Assembly: GCA_031425655.1 (NCBI GenBank)
Contig: JANPJS010000240.1
Coordinates: 1 to 14,022, forward strand
Direction of reading: 5' to 3'
Origin: Abditibacteriaceae bacterium
Lineage (GTDB): Bacteria > Armatimonadota > Abditibacteriia > Abditibacteriales > Abditibacteriaceae
Length of the DNA: 14,022 nt
Positions 2,289 through 12,487 of this stretch are shown piece after piece (position 1 is the stretch's first letter; each line of letters opens with the position of its first letter). The translations under genes and the position numbers were made by a program. The notes beneath the pieces were generated by a model, which did not search any database, was not told the origin of the DNA, and saw nothing but the letters and a program-made list of their open reading frames with translations.

Positions 2289-3272
2289 ATGTCGCAGCGG
2301 CACCAATTACAGCGGATATTAGAGATTGATCGCAGCATCCGTTCCGGACAGTTTCCTAACGCCGATTCTCTTTCAGCGGAATTGGAAGTGGGGCGCCGCG
2401 TCATTTTCAACGACCGGCGCTTCATGGTGGATCAGCTCGGCGCGCCGATTGAGTTTGATAAGCAGCGGGGCGGCTGGCGGTATGCCAGCGAAACTTATGC
2501 GCTGCCCTCTACTTTGGTCACCGAAGGCGAGTTGATGGCGTTTTTTATCAGCGTTGAAGTCGCCCAGCGTTATCTGGGCACGGCCTTCGAGACGCCGTTG
2601 CATTCGGCGGTGGGGAAGATTGCTCGCAGCCTTCAGGGGCGCGCTTTAGTGAGCCTGCACACGCTGCATCAGCATTACACGTTTGCGCCGCCGCCGTCGG
2701 CTCCAACTAATGAGGCCGCGCTGCTGGCGTTGCACGAAGCCATCGAAAGCCGGCGCGCCGTAGCGATGTCCTACCACACGGCCAGCCGGCGTGAGAAAAG
2801 CGAACGCATCGTGCATCCCCATCATTTACTGCATCAAAGCGGCGAATGGTATCTCCTCGCTTATGATCGCAAGCGGGCCAAGATACTGACTTTCAATATC
2901 GCGCGCATCGAGTGGTGGCGCGTGCTGGACGAACGATTTACGCGCGAAGCCAACTTCGATCCTATCGAGCAACAGCGCGCGGCCTTCGGCGCCGAATCGC
3001 AGACTGGCGTGCTGCCCGTCGTGATTCTTTTCGCGCCCGAAGAAGCGGTTTACATCCGCGAGCGGCGCTGGCACGAAACGCAGCAAATCGAGGAATTGCC
3101 CGGCGGAGGCTTGATTTTGCGCTTCCAAACCAGCGGTTTAGGCGCCGTCAAACGCTGGGTGCTGGGCTACGGCCCACACGCCGAAGTTTTGGAACCTGTC
3201 ACATTGCGCGAAGAAATCGTGAAAGAGATTGAAGCGATGAAAACGGTTTACGAAGGAGAAAATGAACGATAA
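2289..3272 (+). CDS. WYL-domain transcriptional regulator (N-terminal wHTH, WYL, WCX; PafB/PafC/YafY-like)
   Basis: 327 aa. It has an N-terminal HTH (LSAELEVGRRVIFNDRRFM...LGAPIEFD...GWRY), a WYL core (R.VHPHHL....GEWYLLAYD..R..ILTFNIARI) and a WCX-like tail (WVLGYGPHAEVLEPVTLREEI). A good SD is present. Confidence 0.93.
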   Translation: MSQRHQLQRILEIDRSIRSGQFPNADSLSAELEVGRRVIFNDRRFMVDQLGAPIEFDKQRGGWRYASETYALPSTLVTEGELMAFFISVEVAQRYLGTAFETPLHSAVGKIARSLQGRALVSLHTLHQHYTFAPPPSAPTNEAALLALHEAIESRRAVAMSYHTASRREKSERIVHPHHLLHQSGEWYLLAYDRKRAKILTFNIARIEWWRVLDERFTREANFDPIEQQRAAFGAESQTGVLPVVILFAPEEAVYIRERRWHETQQIEELPGGGLILRFQTSGLGAVKRWVLGYGPHAEVLEPVTLREEIVKEIEAMKTVYEGENER

Positions 3273-6036
3273 ATTGCTTGTGTTGTGGGGCAAAACCTGC
3301 CGCGACCCGAAAGAACCCGAAGCGGATTTGATTTACCATCCGCTGTTGTTTCATTTGCTCGACGTTGGGCACTGCACGCTGGAATTGTGGGACACCTTTT
3401 TGAGTGATGGCTGGAAAAAGCGCATCGCCGAAACTTTGGCGTGCGACGAAACGACCGCGCGCTGGGCTATGGCGTTTTTGGCGGGCGCGCACGATTTGGG
3501 AAAAGCCACGCCCGGCTTTCAATTCCAAAAAACGCCTCTCGACTGGCTCCGCGAACGCTTGCACTCGGCAGGTTTTATGGCTCCTGCTAATCCCGAAAAC
3601 AAGCCGCACAATTTTGTTTCCAGCAAGGAACTGCATCATTTCTGGATGCAAAATCTGTGGCGATGGCAAGCGCAAAACCGGCGTGTCGCTCCGGTTTTGG
3701 CGCATATCACCGGCGCCCATCACGGCACGTTTCCTAACGCCGGCGATTACAGCAAATGGAACGATGATGTTTTAGGAAGCCCTATCTGGCGCGAAGCACG
3801 ATTGGCGCTTTTAGATGCTTTGGCCGCACATCTTTGTCCACCTGATTTCGCGTTTCCGCCGACGCTAAAGTGGGATGATGCCGGAGCAATTCCCGTTTTG
3901 GCGGGTCTGATTTCGGTCGCCGACTGGATTGGCTCATCAAGTCATTTCAGAATCGAAGGGCACCGCGACAAGCTGATAAGCGTGCCCGATTATCTTCTGA
4001 AGTCGCGCAAACGGGCGCGGACAGCGTTGGATGATTTCGGTTTTGCAGCCACGCCGCGCTTTGTCGCGCCGAAGCCTGATTTCGCAGAGTTTTGGGGCTT
4101 TGAGCCTAATCCTCTGCAAGATGCTGTCATCGCGCAAACGCAAAACGCCCAAGCACCGTTTTTGCTGCTTTGTGAAGCGCCGATGGGTTCGGGCAAAACC
4201 GAAAGCGCCTTTTGGGCGGCTGACGCGGCATTCACGGGCGCGCTCAATCAAGGGCTTTACATCGCGCTACCCACGCAAGCGACCTCCAACGCCATGCACG
4301 CGCGCACCCGCAAATTCTTGGAAAAGCGATTGCCGCGGGGCGCCATTCACTTGCAGTTAGTTCATGGAAATGCTGGGCTTTTGGAAACGCCCAATGTGGT
4401 CTTTGAGCCGCTTTCCACGCTTTACGAGCAACTGGAAAACGACCCCGAAAAAGCGCGTGTGATGGCGCTGAGTTGGTTTTCGGGCGCCAAGCGTCCGCTT
4501 CTGGCACCCTTTGGCGTCGGCACCATTGACCAAAGCCTGCTGGGCGCCTTGCAAAGCCGCCACTGGTTCGTGCGCCTTTTTGGTTTGGCCGGAAAAGTCG
4601 TGGTATTCGACGAAGTTCACGCCTACGACACCTACATGAGCCGCTTGCTCATCGTGCTGCTGCACTGGCTGCGCGAATTGGGATGCAGCGTGATTTTGCT
4701 GTCGGCGACACTGCCGTCGGGCAAGCGCCGCGAATTAGTCGAAGCGTGGGGCGCGGCTTTGCCTGATGCAGAAGCCAAATATCCGCGCTTGACCTGGTGC
4801 GACGACAAGCCCAATGCCGTTTCCATCGGCATCGAAGGCGCGGAAATGGCGCCCAAAAACGTTGCTGTTTCAGTTTTGAAGCCGGAAAATCTCGCCGCCG
4901 AATTGCGCCGCAAATTGAAAAACGGCGGTTGCGCGGCCATCATCTGCAACACCGTCAAAGAAGCTCAAGCCTTGTTTCAGATTTTGCAAAGCGAACTCGG
5001 CGATTTCATTAAACCTAAGGGCTTAATACTGTTTCACGCACGAATGCCGTTTAAGTGGCGCCGAAGAATCGAAAGCAAAGTCCGGCGGCTTTTTGGCAAA
5101 CGCAAGGCAATGCGACCGCATCGCGCTATTATTGTGTCAACGCAATTATTAGAGCAGTCGCTTGATCTCGATTTTGATTGGATGGCTTCGTTCATGGCGC
5201 CCAGCGACTTGTTGTTGCAGCGCGTGGGCCGTTTACATCGCCACCCCGAAACGCCGCATCGCTACGATTTAACGCAGCCACAGTTAGCGATTCTTTGCGA
5301 TGCCGAAGGCGACGCTCCGCCCAATTTCGGCGCATCCGAGTGGGTTTACGAGCGGGAAGTTTTGCTGCGTTCGTGGCTTTTGTGGCGCGGCAAAACCGTG
5401 TTGAAATTGCCCGGCGAAATCGAATCGCTGATTGAGAACACCTACGAAAACGCGCCCCATCTGCCCGACGAAATTTGGCGCAAAGCCATCGTAGACGCCC
5501 AAGCCCATGCCGAAAACGAACGGAGCAAGGCCGAAGGGAAGGCCAAAAACGTCGTGGTGAAGCTGCGAACCGAACGTGGCAATCGCCGCGCGCCCAGCGA
5601 ATTAGTGGAAGCGCCGTCGTTGGATTTGCGCGATGATGACGACCCGGCGATTCACGCCGCTCTGCGCGCCTCAACGCGCGATGGCGACGAATCCGTCACA
5701 GTGATTTGCCTTTGCCTTGTGGGAAAGTCGTTTTATCTGCCGTCGCCTGACGGCACGCCCAATCTACAGTCGCCGGTGAGCCTAAAGCAGGAGCTGGCTA
5801 AAAACGAAGCAAAAAAGCTGATGGATTTCGCGGTTTCGCTGTCGCAAAAAGGGCTTTATGGGGAACTGTTGCAAATCGAAGTGCCCGCCGCGTGGAAAAA
5901 ATCGCCGTTCTTGCGCCACGCCCGCCCGCTGTGCTTCCACAACGGCGCCGTTGCCATCGGCAACTTCGTTTTGCGCTTGGACGGCGCGTTAGGAATTGTC
6001 ATCGAAAAGGAGAAAAGCGAAACAGGAGCCGAATAA
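3262..6036 (+). CDS. cas3: CRISPR-associated helicase/nuclease Cas3 (HD + SF2 helicase), type I-E
   Basis: 924 aa. HD motifs HLLDV, HDLGKA, HHG and ADW; Walker A APMGSGKTE; Walker B DEVH; SAT; motif VI QRVGRLHRH. SD GGAG; overlaps the WYL gene by 11 nt. Confidence 0.97.
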   Translation: MNDKLLVLWGKTCRDPKEPEADLIYHPLLFHLLDVGHCTLELWDTFLSDGWKKRIAETLACDETTARWAMAFLAGAHDLGKATPGFQFQKTPLDWLRERLHSAGFMAPANPENKPHNFVSSKELHHFWMQNLWRWQAQNRRVAPVLAHITGAHHGTFPNAGDYSKWNDDVLGSPIWREARLALLDALAAHLCPPDFAFPPTLKWDDAGAIPVLAGLISVADWIGSSSHFRIEGHRDKLISVPDYLLKSRKRARTALDDFGFAATPRFVAPKPDFAEFWGFEPNPLQDAVIAQTQNAQAPFLLLCEAPMGSGKTESAFWAADAAFTGALNQGLYIALPTQATSNAMHARTRKFLEKRLPRGAIHLQLVHGNAGLLETPNVVFEPLSTLYEQLENDPEKARVMALSWFSGAKRPLLAPFGVGTIDQSLLGALQSRHWFVRLFGLAGKVVVFDEVHAYDTYMSRLLIVLLHWLRELGCSVILLSATLPSGKRRELVEAWGAALPDAEAKYPRLTWCDDKPNAVSIGIEGAEMAPKNVAVSVLKPENLAAELRRKLKNGGCAAIICNTVKEAQALFQILQSELGDFIKPKGLILFHARMPFKWRRRIESKVRRLFGKRKAMRPHRAIIVSTQLLEQSLDLDFDWMASFMAPSDLLLQRVGRLHRHPETPHRYDLTQPQLAILCDAEGDAPPNFGASEWVYEREVLLRSWLLWRGKTVLKLPGEIESLIENTYENAPHLPDEIWRKAIVDAQAHAENERSKAEGKAKNVVVKLRTERGNRRAPSELVEAPSLDLRDDDDPAIHAALRASTRDGDESVTVICLCLVGKSFYLPSPDGTPNLQSPVSLKQELAKNEAKKLMDFAVSLSQKGLYGELLQIEVPAAWKKSPFLRHARPLCFHNGAVAIGNFVLRLDGALGIVIEKEKSETGAE

Positions 6037-6050
6037 CTTCGGCTCCTGTT
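6021..6050. terminator. Perfect 13-bp hairpin, probable intrinsic terminator (U-rich tail on the minus strand)
   Basis: AACAGGAGCCGAA-TAAC-TTCGGCTCCTGTT, with the cas3 stop codon in the loop. On the minus strand it is followed by TCGCTTTTCTCCTTTT. Confidence 0.65.
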
Positions 6051-6135
6051 CATCCCTGCGCTTGCTGGGAACTAAATAGCGAACGCGAAACTACTCAGCG
6101 TAATTGCGGTTCATACCCGCGCTTGCGGGTAACAA
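6046..6135 (-). CRISPR. Single-spacer mini-CRISPR with degenerate repeats (CreA/CreR-like regulatory guide)
   Basis: On the minus strand: TTGTTACCCGCAAGCGCGGGTATGAACCG (6135-6107, 24/29 identical to the array repeat), a 32-nt spacer CAATTACGCTGAGTAGTTTCGCGTTCGCTATT (6106-6075), then TAGTTCCCAGCAAGCGCAGGGATGAACAG (6074-6046, 22/29). The 61-nt period is the same as in the main array. Confidence 0.9.
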
Positions 6136-6168
6136 AAAGAGGTTACCTTTTTTGATTTCACAATGCAG

Positions 6169-6197
6169 TTGACAGAAACCGTCAGCTTTTGTAAATT
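6169..6197 (+). promoter_or_regulatory. Sigma70-type promoter upstream of the Cascade operon
   Basis: TTGACA (6169-6174), 17 nt, TAAATT (6192-6197). A second, weaker candidate is TTGCTT (6240-6245), 16 nt, TAATAT (6262-6267). Confidence 0.65.
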
Positions 6198-6210
6198 TTG
6201 AGTCGGAGGT

Positions 6211-6245
6211 GAGACATTACGCGATACAACGCAACGTAATTGCTT
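6211..6245 (-). promoter_or_regulatory. Self-target (protospacer plus AAG PAM) of the 6046-6135 mini-CRISPR
   Basis: The minus strand reads AAG-CAATTACGTTGCGTTGTATCGCGTAATGTCTC. It matches the mini-array spacer at 20 of the 24 PAM-proximal positions, including positions 1-8. Confidence 0.85.
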
Positions 6246-6479
6246 GCAAAAATGCAAAAAATAATATTTGAAGGCGCGTTCTGATAGGATTGTTGGCTCT
6301 GGCGCGCCAACGCCAGAGCCAACTGTGCAATCCCGTCGGACTTCGATAAATGCTGTTTGCTCCAACGTTTATCGAAACGGGTCGCGCGCCGCCCATCCAT
6401 GCTTCGGCAACTGCCGAATTTGACCTTGGCGGGGACGACACAGAGTAGTTTACCGTGTCGTCCCCGCTCCGGGAGGACG

Positions 6480-8087
6480 ATGAATTTTACTTTTAATCTG
6501 CTCACTGAGCCGTGGATTCCCGTTTTGCAGAATGACGGAAAAATCCGCGATGTGGGGCTGCGTGAGCTTTTGCTCGACGCTCACAATTTCCGCGAAATCG
6601 CCCACGATTCGCCGCCGTTCGTAGCGTCGCTGCTGATGGTTGGCGTGGCGTTGCTGCACAGCGCGTGGCCCGGCGAAACGACTATCGAACGCGAGGACGA
6701 ATGGGAGCGCGTGTGGAATCTGGGGCGCTTCGACGCCGACGTTCTGGAAGCGTATTTCCAAAAGTGGGCCGACCGCTTCGATTTGTTTCATCCTCAATTT
6801 CCGTTTTACCAGACGGCGGGCATGACGATGGAAAAGGACAGCGCGCTTTTTCGTCTGGCACTGGATGAGAACAACGCCGGGATGTTCGCCAACGAAGCTA
6901 ATCCCGAATGGCAGGCGCCCTCGCCGCAAATCGCCGCGCAATTGCTGCTTTGCATCCAAAGCTACGCCGTTGGTTTGGGTCTGACCAGCAACGCCAAAAT
7001 CGGCGCCGAAGTTTTGGAAACGCCGCGTTTTACCAACGGCGTGCTGATGAGTGGTCTCACCATTTGGCCGTCGGGCGCCACGCTTTTTCAAACTTTGATG
7101 CTTAATACGGTGCCGCACGAACGCGCCGAAGACGACAAGCCCTGCTGGGAACTGGACGCGCCGCATCTTTTGCGCGACACCGAAAGCAAGGCCGGGCGCC
7201 GCGTGGAGCCGGTGCGTGGCATTTGCGATTTGCTGACGCTGCAAAGCCGCTTAATTCGGCTGTTACCGGTTGAGCGCAACGGACAAGTTGCCGTTCCCAG
7301 CGTGTATTTCACGCAGGGTCGCAGTGTCAGCAGAAGCGGCGGCACCGAGTTTCATCCTTTCAAACTCTATATTCCCAGCAAAGAAACCGGCTTCACACCG
7401 CTGTCTTTGAGCGAAAACAAGGCAATTTGGCGCAACAGCGCGGCGCTTTTATCGCCCGAAACGCGCAAGCACGACGCACGCAATCCTTTATCGTTTGTAG
7501 CGCAGATGGCGCAGGGCGGCGTGCTGGCGCCGGATTTCCGCGCCGGTTTGGACGTTGTCGGCATTGCTACCAAACCGGGCAAAGCGGCCAGTATTTTGTT
7601 GTGGCGCCATGACCGCTTGCCACTGCCTCCGGCGCTTTTGCTCGACCGCAACGTCGAAAGTCGCGTTCACGCAGCCATTGACGAGGCCGACAAACTCGCT
7701 GACGAAATGCGCCTGCGCTTTTCCATGGTGGCGCGCACGCTTTTGGTGCCGGAAAAAATGGCCGGTCACAGTCCCGACCCGGACGACGTAAAGAATCTGG
7801 TTGCTAAGTTCGATCCGCGCCGGGCGTTTTGGCCGCAACTGGAAACTCCGTTTCTCGATTTTCTCAAGCGACTGCCCACCGAACCCGATGCGGCGCGCAG
7901 CGATTGGCGCACGGCTATCGAAATGACGGCCAACGAATGTTTTGGCGCCGCGTGCAACGCGCTGGGCACCGGGCCGGACGCCGTTGTCGCCGTCGCGCAG
8001 GTTTCGCGCTTTTTCAAGCTCGAACACATTCTCGAACGCGCCGAAAAATTCAAATCTTCCCGGCCTAAAACCGCCAAAAAGCGGTAA
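6480..8087 (+). CDS. cas8e: Type I-E Cascade large subunit Cas8e (Cse1/CasA)
   Basis: The start was reassigned to ATG 6480 (SD GGGAGG at 6471-6476). The N-terminus FNLLTEPWIPV and the motifs RFDLFHPQFPFYQ, G.TLFQTLMLN and LTLQSRLIRL are typical of Cse1. 535 aa. Confidence 0.95.
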   Translation: MNFTFNLLTEPWIPVLQNDGKIRDVGLRELLLDAHNFREIAHDSPPFVASLLMVGVALLHSAWPGETTIEREDEWERVWNLGRFDADVLEAYFQKWADRFDLFHPQFPFYQTAGMTMEKDSALFRLALDENNAGMFANEANPEWQAPSPQIAAQLLLCIQSYAVGLGLTSNAKIGAEVLETPRFTNGVLMSGLTIWPSGATLFQTLMLNTVPHERAEDDKPCWELDAPHLLRDTESKAGRRVEPVRGICDLLTLQSRLIRLLPVERNGQVAVPSVYFTQGRSVSRSGGTEFHPFKLYIPSKETGFTPLSLSENKAIWRNSAALLSPETRKHDARNPLSFVAQMAQGGVLAPDFRAGLDVVGIATKPGKAASILLWRHDRLPLPPALLLDRNVESRVHAAIDEADKLADEMRLRFSMVARTLLVPEKMAGHSPDPDDVKNLVAKFDPRRAFWPQLETPFLDFLKRLPTEPDAARSDWRTAIEMTANECFGAACNALGTGPDAVVAVAQVSRFFKLEHILERAEKFKSSRPKTAKKR

Positions 8088-11419: not shown

Positions 11420-11509
11420 AGGTTCCTCGCCTGCGCGGGGATGAACCGGTGCGCGACTCACTCACTTATCTTTACGTCGAGTGTTCCCTGCGAGCGCGGG
11501 GACGAATTA
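11420..11509 (+). CRISPR. Single-spacer mini-CRISPR with degenerate repeats; the spacer derives from a cas1 gene
   Basis: AGGTTCCTCGCCTGCGCGGGGATGAACCG (11420-11448, 23/29), a 32-nt spacer GTGCGCGACTCACTCACTTATCTTTACGTCGA (11449-11480), then GTGTTCCCTGCGAGCGCGGGGACGAATTA (11481-11509, 21/29). Both stems are preserved through G-U pairs, and the period is 61 nt. Confidence 0.92.
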
Positions 11510-11521
11510 TGGAGGTGCATC

Positions 11522-12487
11522 ATGGGACGCATGGACGACCTGCACATCTTGCCCAAAATTAGGGACAGCCTGACATACCTTTACGTCGAACACGCGACGA
11601 TTGACCGTCACGAAAACAGCATCGCGCTGTGGGACAAAGAAGGCTGCACGCCGGCACCGGCTTCGTCGCTGTGTGTGCTAATGCTGGGGCCGGGCACGCG
11701 CATCACGCAGGCCGCTATCACCATGTTGGCCGACAACAATTGCCTGACGGTTTGGTGCGGCGAGGAAAACGTGCGTTTCTACGCGTGGGGCACGGGCGGC
11801 ACACGCAGCGCCGCGCCGCTTTTGCATCAGGCGCGCATGGTCAGCAATGAAACGCTGCGCCTTGAGGTAGTGCGGCGGATGTATCGAATGCGTTTTGAAG
11901 GCGATCTCGATCCGGCGCTCACGGTGGAGCAGTTGCGAGGCATGGAGGGCGCAAGGGTGCGCGAGACTTACAAGAAGTTCAGCAACGACACCGGCGTCGC
12001 GTGGGAAGGAAGGTCTTACGACCGGACGCGTTGGAACAACACCGATTTAGTCAACAAAGCGCTGTCGTGCGCGAACTCCTGCCTTTATGGTTTGTGCCAC
12101 GCCGCGATTTTGGCGACCGGCTACAGTCCGGGGCTGGGCTTCATTCATACCGGAAAGCAGTTGTCGTTCGTCTACGATATTGCCGACCTCTATAAGGCTG
12201 AACTGACGATTCCACTGGCCTTTTCGGTGGCCGCGGATGCTCCGGCGCAGTTGGAACGCACGGTGCGTTTGCGCTGCCGCGATATTTTCCGCGAAAGCCG
12301 TCTTTTGCAGCGCATCATCCCCGACATTCGCCGCGCTTTAAATGCCCCCGCCGACGCAGATGGCTGGGAATCTCCGCTGGACGAAGACCCGGCGCAGCCG
12401 ACGGATTTGTGGACGCCGTCGTGGGAGCAAGCCGGCAATGCAGCGCCTGAATCGCAGCCCGGCGACGAACAATGGGGTAACGGCTGA
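11522..12487 (+). CDS. cas1: Type I-E Cas1 integrase
   Basis: The start was reassigned to ATG 11522 (SD GGAGGT at 11511-11516); ATG 11531 is also possible. Motifs LMLGPGTRIT, WCGE, QLRGMEGARVR, GYSPGLGFIHTG and SFVYDIADLYK. It has an acidic C-terminal tail. Confidence 0.97.
   Translation: MGRMDDLHILPKIRDSLTYLYVEHATIDRHENSIALWDKEGCTPAPASSLCVLMLGPGTRITQAAITMLADNNCLTVWCGEENVRFYAWGTGGTRSAAPLLHQARMVSNETLRLEVVRRMYRMRFEGDLDPALTVEQLRGMEGARVRETYKKFSNDTGVAWEGRSYDRTRWNNTDLVNKALSCANSCLYGLCHAAILATGYSPGLGFIHTGKQLSFVYDIADLYKAELTIPLAFSVAADAPAQLERTVRLRCRDIFRESRLLQRIIPDIRRALNAPADADGWESPLDEDPAQPTDLWTPSWEQAGNAAPESQPGDEQWGNG

What the first reader, a model, noticed from the sequence alone, without database searches (positions are those of the whole stretch)
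6046..6245. Antisense mini-CRISPR between cas3 and cas8e that targets the neighbouring promoter region with an AAG PAM (CreA/CreR-like)
Seen: the spacer CAATTACGCTGAGTAGTTTCGCGTTCGCTATT aligns to AAG-CAATTACGTTGCGTTGTATCGCGTAATGTCTC (minus strand, 6245-6211). Positions 1-8 are perfect, the only mismatches within the first 24 nt are at 9, 12, 15 and 18, and pairing collapses after position 24. The first repeat has a compensatory C-G to A-T change in its stem (TACCCGC/GCGGGTA) and an intact ATGAACCG handle. Both repeats share an AAGC loop instead of AGGT. Established: every sixth base (12, 18) is flipped out in Cascade R-loops. Missing PAM-distal pairing allows binding without Cas3 licensing, which is how CreA/CreR RNAs repress promoters. 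Inference: Cascade represses transcription toward its own operon or a toxin RNA. The site lies just downstream of the TTGACA/TAAATT promoter and overlaps the -35 of a second candidate promoter.
Basis: partly seen in the sequence, partly recalled or inferred. Interest (0 to 1): 0.8.

Follow-up and report, generated by a model that had tools for sequence, protein, structure and literature searches.

The report
Self-repressing mini-CRISPR upstream of Cascade genes
Between cas3 and cas8e of this type I-E CRISPR locus lies a decayed two-repeat mini-CRISPR whose guide matches a site just after the Cascade promoter, so Cascade most likely throttles its own genes, a feedback loop (CreR) already described in other bacteria.

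Summary
On the minus strand lie a degenerate repeat (6135-6107, 24/29 to the array repeat, hairpin kept by a compensatory change, 8-nt handle intact), a 32-nt spacer (6106-6075) and a second degenerate repeat (6074-6046, 22/29), followed by a terminator. The spacer matches an AAG-flanked site (6245-6211) at 20 of its first 24 positions. That is the single best partial match in the 5.98-Mb genome, and it starts 14 nt after the -10 of the only consensus promoter before cas8e.

Five other type I-E loci have the same layout. These are one genus-mate, one metagenome relative and three other genera of the phylum. Their spacers are unrelated, yet each matches its own AAG-flanked promoter-proximal site: own scores 13-14 of 15 in five of the six loci and 9 in the sixth, cross scores 4-8. 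Mismatches pile up at positions 6 and 12, the bases Cascade does not pair.

This is a CreR / cr-like-RNA autorepressor, a known kind (Salmonella CreR; mini-arrays in about 19% of bacterial I-E loci). This scan has reported it before on other DNA. There is no expression data. Extras: a conserved structured leader with an AUA-AUA mini-ORF, and a second mini-array before cas1.

The parts
6107..6135 (-). Degenerate repeat 1 (PsiR1): 7-bp hairpin with tetraloop, intact 8-nt 5' handle ATGAACCG at 6114-6107
   Evidence: 24/29 to the array repeat. It folds in register with the array repeat at -12.1 kcal/mol.
6075..6106 (-). 32-nt spacer-like guide (PsiS)
   Evidence: Lies exactly between the two repeats at the 61-nt period of the array.
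6046..6074 (-). Degenerate repeat 2 (PsiR2): same hairpin shape with an A.A mismatch in mid-stem
   Evidence: 22/29 to the array repeat, -7.7 kcal/mol.
6054..6114 (-). Predicted mature 61-nt cr-like RNA (8-nt handle, 32-nt guide, 21-nt hairpin)
   Evidence: Inferred from the type I-E processing rule (recalled) applied to the repeats. No RNA data.
6020..6051 (-). Terminator-like 14-bp hairpin plus T-run directly after PsiR2. The hairpin spans the cas3 stop codon.
   Evidence: The same arrangement is found in L035.
6211..6242 (-). Protospacer. Positions 1-24 (6242-6219) match at 20/24 and pairing is lost beyond.
   Evidence: Unique best genome-wide match.
6243..6245 (-). AAG PAM (CTT on the + strand)
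   Evidence: CTT is invariant in the 3-locus alignment while the protospacer varies.
6169..6197 (+). Promoter-like site TTGACA-17-TAAATT (10/12), presumed promoter of the leader and the Cascade operon
   Evidence: The -35 is invariant in G000, G002 and L035.
6127..6148 (+). Terminator-like hairpin plus T-run on the + strand. It is the likely end of the cas3 transcript and overlaps the start of PsiR1.
6252..6284 (+). 10-codon mini-ORF with tandem ATA ATA at 6261-6266. The same letters read as a TATTAT -10-like box on the minus strand.
   Evidence: In frame in 3 of 3 related loci. Function unknown.
6273..6467 (+). Conserved structured 5' leader of cas8e (long-range helix, two internal hairpins, and a hairpin at 6428-6467 before the cas8e ribosome site)
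   Evidence: 69 predicted pairs, 12 with compensatory change. z = -6.8. No Rfam family.
6480..8087 (+). [quoted passage not shown]
   Evidence: Pfam CRISPR_Cse1, E = 2.9e-87.
3262..6036 (+). cas3 (HD nuclease-helicase), convergent with the mini-array
   Evidence: Pfam Cas3_HD, Cas3-like_C_2 and Cas3_C.

Best explanation
This is a CreR-type (cr-like RNA) autorepressor of the type I-E effector operon. A minus-strand transcript of the mini-array would be cut by Cas6e in the two degenerate repeats. That would give a 61-nt guide (about 6114 to 6054), which is loaded into Cascade. Cascade would recognise the AAG PAM at 6245-6243 and pair with the + strand over guide positions 1-24. This site lies in the first ~40 nt of the transcript made from the TTGACA/TAAATT promoter, so a bound Cascade would block RNA polymerase from entering the leader and cas8e-cse2-cas7-cas5-cas6e. 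Pairing is lost beyond position 24, so the R-loop should stay incomplete and Cas3 should not be licensed: repression without self-cleavage. More free Cascade would mean less Cascade transcription. Competing crRNAs or anti-CRISPRs would relieve the repression.

Shown here: the anatomy, the PAM, the match statistics, the promoter position and the covariation in other loci. Inferred: transcription, processing, loading, binding and repression.
For: (1) Repeat anatomy. The repeats are 24/29 and 22/29 identical to the array repeat at the exact 61-nt period. The hairpin is kept by a compensatory change and the 8-nt handle is intact. In the whole genome, the only degenerate repeat-like sequences (21/29 or more) outside arrays are these two and two more inside the same cas locus.
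(2) The target is the unique best genome-wide partial match (20/24; next best 18/24 at 4 sites). It lies 136 nt away and carries AAG.
(3) The protospacer starts 14 nt after the -10 of the only promoter-like site in 5900-6600. No terminator-like site lies between it and cas8e in G000.
(4) Covariation. Six loci with unrelated spacers score 13, 13, 13, 13, 14 and 9 of 15 against their own region with AAG required, against 4-8 in all 30 cross pairs. 0/2000 shuffles reach the own score in five loci. All six targets lie on the mini-array's strand, 210-245 nt before cas8e.
(5) In the alignment of the three related loci, the -35 and the CTT of the PAM are invariant while the protospacer differs.
(6) Mismatches fall at positions 6 and 12 in 8/12 cells, against 12/84 cells at the other positions 1-16 (Fisher p = 2.8e-4). 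This is expected if selection acts through Cascade pairing.
(7) A terminator follows PsiR2 on the minus strand in G000 and in L035.
(8) The same device is published for type I-E. Salmonella CreR gave 8.6-fold reporter repression and uses an AAG PAM (passages). Mini-arrays between cas3 and cas8, antisense to cas3, occur in about 19% of bacterial I-E loci (passages).
Against: No sigma-70-like promoter was found on the minus strand upstream of PsiR1 in G000 (one search lists one promoter-like site, and it is on +). PsiR2 has an A.A mismatch in its stem, which may weaken Cas6e binding. Positions 9 and 15 are true mismatches inside the paired zone. G002, L035 and L013 have a mismatch at seed position 2 or 3; from recalled E. 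coli work this should weaken binding. The L013 own match is not significant on its own (166/2000 shuffles). L011 has no promoter-like hit on the gene strand at the scan's threshold. The site lies downstream of the start point and not over the -35/-10 boxes, so repression would be by roadblock, whose strength is unknown. There are no expression or binding data.
Confidence: 0.8

Rival explanations
1. CreTA-like guard. The promoter covered by the guide mainly drives a toxic small RNA, namely the leader, whose mini-ORF with two consecutive rare AUA codons plus a downstream stem-loop would sequester the AUA-reading tRNA-Ile. On this view the mini-array is the antitoxin (CreA) that makes the cell addicted to Cascade. 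This can coexist with autorepression.
For: A mini-ORF with ATA ATA in frame behind an ATG is present in 3 of 3 related loci, and ATAATA is invariant while the flanking codons vary. ATA is the 7th rarest codon at 3.1 per 1000. No tRNA with a UAU anticodon was found, so AUA depends on a modified CAU tRNA. A strong conserved stem-loop follows the mini-ORF. Halobacterium hubeiense CreT is a six-codon ORF with two AUA codons plus a stem-loop, repressed by a two-repeat creA (passages of PMC8501985).
Against: In G000 the ATG at 6252 has no ribosome-binding motif nearby and sits in a predicted hairpin. The same invariant letters read TATTAT on the minus strand, a -10-like box that could be the mini-array's own promoter (hit in L035). 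No consistent terminator separates the leader from cas8e: none in G000 or G002 and a weak one in L035. So the leader looks like a 5' UTR and not a separate small RNA. There are only three sequences. Three other loci with the same guide layout carry a ~62-67-aa ORF instead of this leader.
Confidence: 0.1
2. Non-functional relic: a decayed fragment of an old array or an ectopic spacer integration. On this view the match to the neighbouring DNA reflects a past self-acquired spacer or a local duplication, with no regulatory role today.
For: Both repeats are degenerate and PsiR2 has a broken stem pair. No minus-strand promoter was found in G000. There are no RNA data (which is a blank and not evidence). 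A second degenerate mini-array in the same locus (11420-11509) shows that such remnants do arise here.
Against: A relic would not keep the handle, the hairpin (through a compensatory change), the PAM and the seed-proximal match. The same layout would not recur with unrelated spacers in six loci with own-versus-cross scores of 13-14 against 4-8. Mismatches would not concentrate at positions 6 and 12.
Confidence: 0.07
3. The two similar 24-nt stretches (6083-6106 and 6219-6242) are two operator sites for a DNA-binding protein, for example the WYL-domain regulator encoded before cas3, and not a guide-target pair.
For: A WYL/WCX protein is encoded at 2289-3272 and overlaps the cas3 start. In G002 two similar AAG-flanked sites flank the promoter.
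Against: One copy sits exactly as a 32-nt spacer between two CRISPR-like repeats, and the other is flanked by the type I-E PAM. Similarity is graded from the PAM-proximal end and is relaxed at every sixth base, which a protein operator does not predict. The pairs differ completely between related loci.
Confidence: 0.03

Closest known systems
CreR (Cas-regulating RNA) of the Salmonella enterica type I-E locus (Liu et al., bioRxiv 10.1101/2023.03.10.532045; passages read)
   Same: A degenerate two-repeat mini-CRISPR beside the Cascade operon. PsiR1 keeps the 8-nt handle. The match is partial and PAM-proximal, to an AAG-flanked site upstream of casA/cas8e. The proposed outcome is Cascade autorepression that senses crRNA load and anti-CRISPRs.
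   Different: Here the match is 20 of 24 with interruptions, against 15 consecutive nt in Salmonella. The site lies about 238 nt before cas8e (Salmonella about 140), in the first part of a long, conserved, structured leader. The host is an uncultured freshwater-sediment genome of another lineage. Nothing has been tested experimentally.
Regulatory mini-arrays / cr-like RNAs of type I-E loci (Shmakov et al., bioRxiv 10.1101/2023.03.03.530964; passages read)
   Same: They lie between cas3 and cas8 and are transcribed opposite to cas3. The repeat next to the seed is the better conserved one. The target is in the cas8 promoter region with AAG, and mismatches at sixth positions are tolerated. They were reported in about 19% of bacterial I-E loci.
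   Different: I could not see that paper's supplementary lists, so I cannot say whether this lineage is already in them. Here the target is downstream of the -10. Two of the six loci studied here have 20-nt spacers.
CreTA of Halobacterium hubeiense, type I-B (PMC8501985; passages read)
   Same: A two-repeat creA-like guide that represses a neighbouring promoter. Downstream of that promoter lie a mini-ORF with two consecutive AUA codons and a stem-loop.
   Different: It is archaeal and type I-B. The toxin is a short separate RNA with a leaderless AUG. Here the AUA-AUA mini-ORF is embedded in the 5' UTR of cas8e, lacks a clear ribosome site in G000, and toxicity is untested.
Long tracrRNA (tracr-L) autorepression of Cas9 (named in the passages; the paper itself was not read)
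   Same: A natural non-canonical guide turns the effector into a repressor of its own promoter.
   Different: Class 2, single-protein effector, with no mini-array.

Membership tests
CreR / regulatory mini-array of type I-E | Degenerate repeat - spacer - degenerate repeat unit inside or beside the cas operon, outside the CRISPR array | tested here: met
   The repeats are 24/29 and 22/29 identical to the array repeat and are spaced by 32 nt, between cas3 and cas8e.
CreR / regulatory mini-array of type I-E | PsiR1 keeps the nucleotides of the 5' handle, and PsiR2 keeps the hairpin that becomes the 3' handle | tested here: met
   The handle is 8/8. The first 21 nt of PsiR2 match at 15/21 and fold into the same hairpin with one A.A mismatch.
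CreR / regulatory mini-array of type I-E | Partial, PAM-proximal complementarity to a site with the cognate PAM in the effector promoter region | tested here: met
   AAG plus 20/24. The site lies 14-48 nt after the -10 of the only promoter-like site.
CreR / regulatory mini-array of type I-E | Guide and target change together in related loci | tested here: met
   Own scores are 13-14 of 15 in five of six loci (9 in the sixth) against 4-8 for the 30 cross pairs. The PAM is invariant while the protospacer varies.
CreR / regulatory mini-array of type I-E | The RNA is made and processed to a crRNA-like species | not testable with these tools
   No RNA run was listed for this DNA. No minus-strand promoter was found by the consensus scan in G000.
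CreR / regulatory mini-array of type I-E | Cascade-dependent, Cas3-independent repression of the promoter | not testable with these tools
   This needs reporter or binding assays.
CreR as opposed to CreA | No toxin gene under the repressed promoter | tested here: inconclusive
   There is no protein ORF in the leader, since the frames are broken in G002. A conserved AUA-AUA mini-ORF and a structured RNA are present.
CreTA (CRISPR-repressed toxin-antitoxin RNA pair) | creT: a small RNA with an efficient start, consecutive rare codons and a downstream stem-loop | tested here: inconclusive
   ATA ATA is in frame in 3/3 loci, ATA is rare (3.1 per 1000) and a stem-loop is present. G000 has no ribosome site, its AUG lies in a predicted hairpin, and no consistent terminator separates the leader from cas8e.
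CreTA (CRISPR-repressed toxin-antitoxin RNA pair) | Toxicity when Cascade or creA is removed | not testable with these tools
   This needs an experiment.

The most novel reading that the evidence does not exclude
The guide does more than autorepress. Together with the promoter it covers and the lineage-specific ~220-nt structured leader, whose mini-ORF carries two consecutive rare AUA codons, it would form the first type I-E, bacterial tRNA-Ile-sequestering CreTA-like module. Loss or inhibition of Cascade would then unleash a growth-arresting RNA fused to the Cascade mRNA.
Probability: 0.1. Interest if true: 0.6.

Novelty: new member of a known kind. Interest (0 to 1): 0.3.

Why it matters
On its own it is one more CreR-type regulator. 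Its value is as a clean natural data set. Six loci have unrelated guides that each track their own promoter, the PAM is invariant, and matching is relaxed at exactly the bases Cascade does not read. This is comparative evidence, from uncultured bacteria outside the enterobacterial models, that selection acts through Cascade binding. Three unusual features could repay a bench test: 20-nt guides in two loci, a conserved structured leader with an AUA-AUA mini-ORF between target and cas8e, and a second mini-array before cas1.

Tried and rejected
- The Cas8e scan of genome contigs gave 1 distant relative out of 47 pattern hits and was of no use.
- The DNA search of the intergenic region found a match only in G002, in 2 of 41 relatives and 2 of 28 genomes of the order, G000 included in both counts.
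- The de novo screen for 60-62-nt-spaced repeat pairs was uninformative outside G000 and G002.
- The screen by likeness to the G000 repeat (17/29 or more) is a lower bound. It cannot see mini-arrays with other repeat types in the remaining loci.
- Rfam on 5950-6550 gave only a chance miRNA match far below threshold.
- RNA evidence: no RNA holder was listed. The three DNA runs gave contigs only. One contig of X3 matches the cas3 end and PsiR2 and then continues with other letters, so a close relative probably has another spacer. Only 30 letters are shown, so its target could not be checked.
- Plasmid searches with the mini-array region and with the second spacer found nothing useful.
- Leader as protein: rejected, because the frames that are open in G000 carry stops in G002.
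- The period-3 spacing of mismatches (9, 12, 15, 18) as a sign of coding: rejected. No start codon opens that frame at the target, and the overlapping ORF at the spacer lies out of frame over the cas3 end.
- The second + promoter (TTGCTT-16-TAATAT) falls below threshold and its spacing is not conserved.
- The small ORF of L010, L011 and L013 has no Pfam or NCBIfam family, and the Atlas gave no hit above 0.82.
- One search failed on a frame error and was corrected.

Full report
**Context.** The window is a complete type I-E locus on the + strand (Pfam):
- a WYL/WCX regulator (2289-3272) overlapping the start of cas3 (3262-6036)
- cas8e (6480-8087), cse2, cas7, cas5, cas6e, cas1 and cas2
- a CRISPR array from 12885 with a 29-nt repeat at a 61-nt period

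The window is contig C240 of a 5.98-Mb, 327-contig genome. The best DNA holder is labelled a freshwater sediment metagenome.

**The observation.** Read on the minus strand, the 443-nt cas3-cas8e spacer holds three parts:
- A first degenerate repeat at 6135-6107, 24/29 identical to the array repeat.
- A 32-nt spacer at 6106-6075.
- A second degenerate repeat at 6074-6046, 22/29 identical.

The first repeat folds into the same 7-bp, tetraloop hairpin as the array repeat (-12.1 against -14.4 kcal/mol). One stem pair has changed on both sides, and the last 8 nt (the future 5' handle) are unchanged. The second repeat keeps the shape but has an A.A mismatch in mid-stem (-7.7 kcal/mol). Both share the loop AAGC where the array has AGGT. 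Directly after the second repeat on the minus strand comes a 14-bp hairpin with a T-run, which spans the cas3 stop codon. On the + strand, a terminator-like hairpin at 6127-6148 overlaps the start of the first repeat. The cas3 transcript therefore probably runs antisense through the mini-array and ends there.

**The match.** The spacer aligns to minus-strand 6242-6211, preceded by AAG (6245-6243).
- Over both strands of the whole genome, the first 24 letters score 20 only at this site. The next best scores are 18 (4 sites) and 17 (57 sites).
- With AAG required and positions 6, 12 and 18 ignored, 0 of 2000 shuffled spacers reach the observed 13 of 15 in the local region.
- The only promoter-like site in 5900-6600 is TTGACA-17-TAAATT at 6169-6197 on the + strand (10/12), so the protospacer begins 14 nt after the -10.
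- No terminator-like site lies between it and cas8e.

**Related loci.** A DNA search of 41 relatives matched only G000 itself and one genus-mate, G002. In G002 the cas3 end and the part from the PAM to cas8e are conserved (74-81%), but the stretch between them is not. That stretch nevertheless holds a minus-strand mini-array with a wholly different 32-nt spacer.

A Cas8e search of 401 genomes of the phylum found relatives in 48, G000 included, and 30 loci were fetched. A screen by likeness to the G000 repeat showed minus-strand repeat pairs upstream of cas8e in L005 (G000), L006 (G002), L011 and L013, and a single repeat in L010. One of 12 metagenome loci, L035 (Cas8e 67% identical), has one too, with a 20-nt spacer like L013.

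For these six loci I scored every spacer against every intergenic region, with AAG required, both strands, and 15 positions counted.
- Own regions give 13, 13, 13, 13, 14 and 9. All 30 cross pairs give 4-8.
- Shuffled spacers reach the own score in 0/2000 for five loci and in 166/2000 for L013, whose match covers only the first 12 nt.
- All six targets lie on the strand of the mini-array, 210-245 nt before the cas8e match.
- A promoter-like site of 10-12/12 lies just upstream on the gene strand in five loci. L011 has none at that threshold.
- In the alignment of G000, G002 and L035, the -35 and the CTT of the PAM are invariant while the protospacer letters differ.
- Over the six pairs, positions 6 and 12 are mismatched in 8 of 12 cells, against 12 of 84 cells at the other positions 1-16 (Fisher p = 2.8e-4). 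Every sixth base is not paired in Cascade R-loops (stated for type I in the passages). This pattern is therefore what selection through Cascade binding predicts, and what a protein operator or a plain duplication does not.

**Mechanism.** The best reading is a CreR-type autorepressor. Cas6e would release a 61-nt guide (6114 to about 6054). Cascade would bind the AAG-flanked site in the first ~40 nt of the transcribed region and block transcription of the leader and the Cascade genes. The missing PAM-distal pairing would keep Cas3 from cutting.

All steps after the DNA anatomy are inferred. No RNA run was listed. The consensus scan finds no minus-strand promoter before the first repeat in G000. 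The conserved leader letters AATAATA read TATTAT on the minus strand. In L035 the scan calls a promoter there (TTCAGA-16-TATTAT). If that promoter is real, the guide would also sit across its own transcription unit.

**What is known.** This device is in print.
- Salmonella enterica type I-E CreR has 15 consecutive matching nt, an AAG PAM and a site about 140 bp before casA. It gave 8.6-fold reporter repression with E. coli Cascade, and repression was relieved by crRNA excess and by AcrIE8 (passages).
- A survey found mini-arrays, antisense to cas3 and aimed at the cas8 promoter with AAG, in about 19% of bacterial I-E loci (passages).
- I saw only passages of these two preprints. Their supplements are closed, so this lineage may already be listed there.
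- This scan has filed at least six such type I-E cases on other genomes.

The finding is therefore a new member of a known kind.

**The leader.** From the PAM to cas8e, G000, G002 and L035 share a conserved leader.
- RNAalifold gives 69 pairs, 12 with compensatory change.
- The G000 leader folds at z = -6.8.
- Rfam has nothing for it.
- A covariance model finds it in 2 of 151 phylum genomes (G000 and G002) and in L035 only.
- It is not coding, because the frames open in G000 carry stops in G002.
- At its start all three loci have a mini-ORF with ATA ATA in frame (G000 6252-6284). ATA is the 7th rarest codon, and no UAU-anticodon tRNA was found.

This recalls the AUA-AUA CreT toxin of Halobacterium hubeiense. 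Against that reading, G000 lacks a ribosome site there, the AUG lies in a predicted hairpin, the leader runs into cas8e without a consistent terminator, and the same letters may be a -10 box. I put the toxin reading at about 0.1.

L010, L011 and L013 have a ~62-67-aa ORF of no known family in this place instead.

**Second mini-array.** Between cas6e and cas1 on the + strand lie two more degenerate repeats (11420-11448, 23/29; 11481-11509, 21/29) around a 32-nt spacer, and both repeats fold as hairpins.
- The spacer encodes the same peptide as cas1 codons 14-23 and differs from the locus's own cas1 mainly at synonymous sites (22/32, PAM position AAA, seed mismatched).
- It matches the G002 cas1 at 27/32.
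- In 20 of 29 relatives the homologous site follows a lysine codon AAG, which is the type I-E PAM.
- G002 and the 28 other cas1 loci examined lack such a mini-array by the same screen.

It looks like a spacer taken from a related cas1 gene. Whether it acts on foreign I-E loci, is a Cas6e processing site in the operon mRNA, or is a fossil remains open.

**Verdict.** It is a known mechanism with good comparative support and no expression data.

Noticed in passing
window 11420-11509 (+), between cas6e and cas1: There is a second degenerate mini-array inside the operon: repeats 23/29 and 21/29, both hairpins, around a 32-nt spacer at 11449-11480. The spacer encodes the same peptide as cas1 at 11559-11590 but differs mostly at synonymous sites (22/32, seed mismatched, PAM position AAA). 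It fits the genus-mate's cas1 better (27/32). In 20 of 29 relatives the homologous site follows an AAG lysine codon, the type I-E PAM. It was not found in G002 or in 28 other cas1 loci of the phylum.
   Followed up: partly
window 6273-6467 (+); L003 and L035 equivalents: There is a conserved, highly structured 5' leader of cas8e: 69 predicted pairs, 12 with compensatory change, z = -6.8. It has no Rfam family and was found only in G000, G002 and one metagenome contig. It may be an unknown cis-regulatory RNA.
   Followed up: partly
window 6252-6284 (+): There is a mini-ORF with tandem rare ATA ATA codons, in frame in 3 of 3 related loci. The same letters are a TATTAT -10-like box on the minus strand.
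   Followed up: partly
L010:1316-1504 (+), L011:1290-1493 (+), L013:3027-3227 (-): In three other loci with the same guide layout, a conserved ~62-67-aa ORF sits between the guide's target and cas8e. It has no Pfam or NCBIfam family and no convincing Atlas neighbour. It may be cargo under Cascade control.
   Followed up: partly
L035:2109-2128 and L013 (mini-array spacers): Two of the six mini-arrays have 20-nt spacers (repeat start-to-start spacing 49 nt). This is 12 nt shorter than the standard 32, which is two of Cascade's 6-nt steps.
   Followed up: no
window 2289-3272 (+): A WYL/WCX-domain protein gene overlaps the cas3 start by 11 nt. It is probably co-transcribed with cas3 and may be a second, protein-based regulator of the locus.
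   Followed up: no
G002:C183, about 20713-20741: In the genus-mate, a second AAG-flanked site resembling the first 11 guide positions lies upstream of the -35, on the way to the mini-array. It may be a second, weaker Cascade site (read by eye).
   Followed up: no
window 6012-6072, run X3: A contig of another sample matches the cas3 end and the second repeat with 3 differing letters over 61 nt. It then continues with different letters where the spacer should be, so a near relative seems to carry another guide (only 30 letters shown).
   Followed up: no
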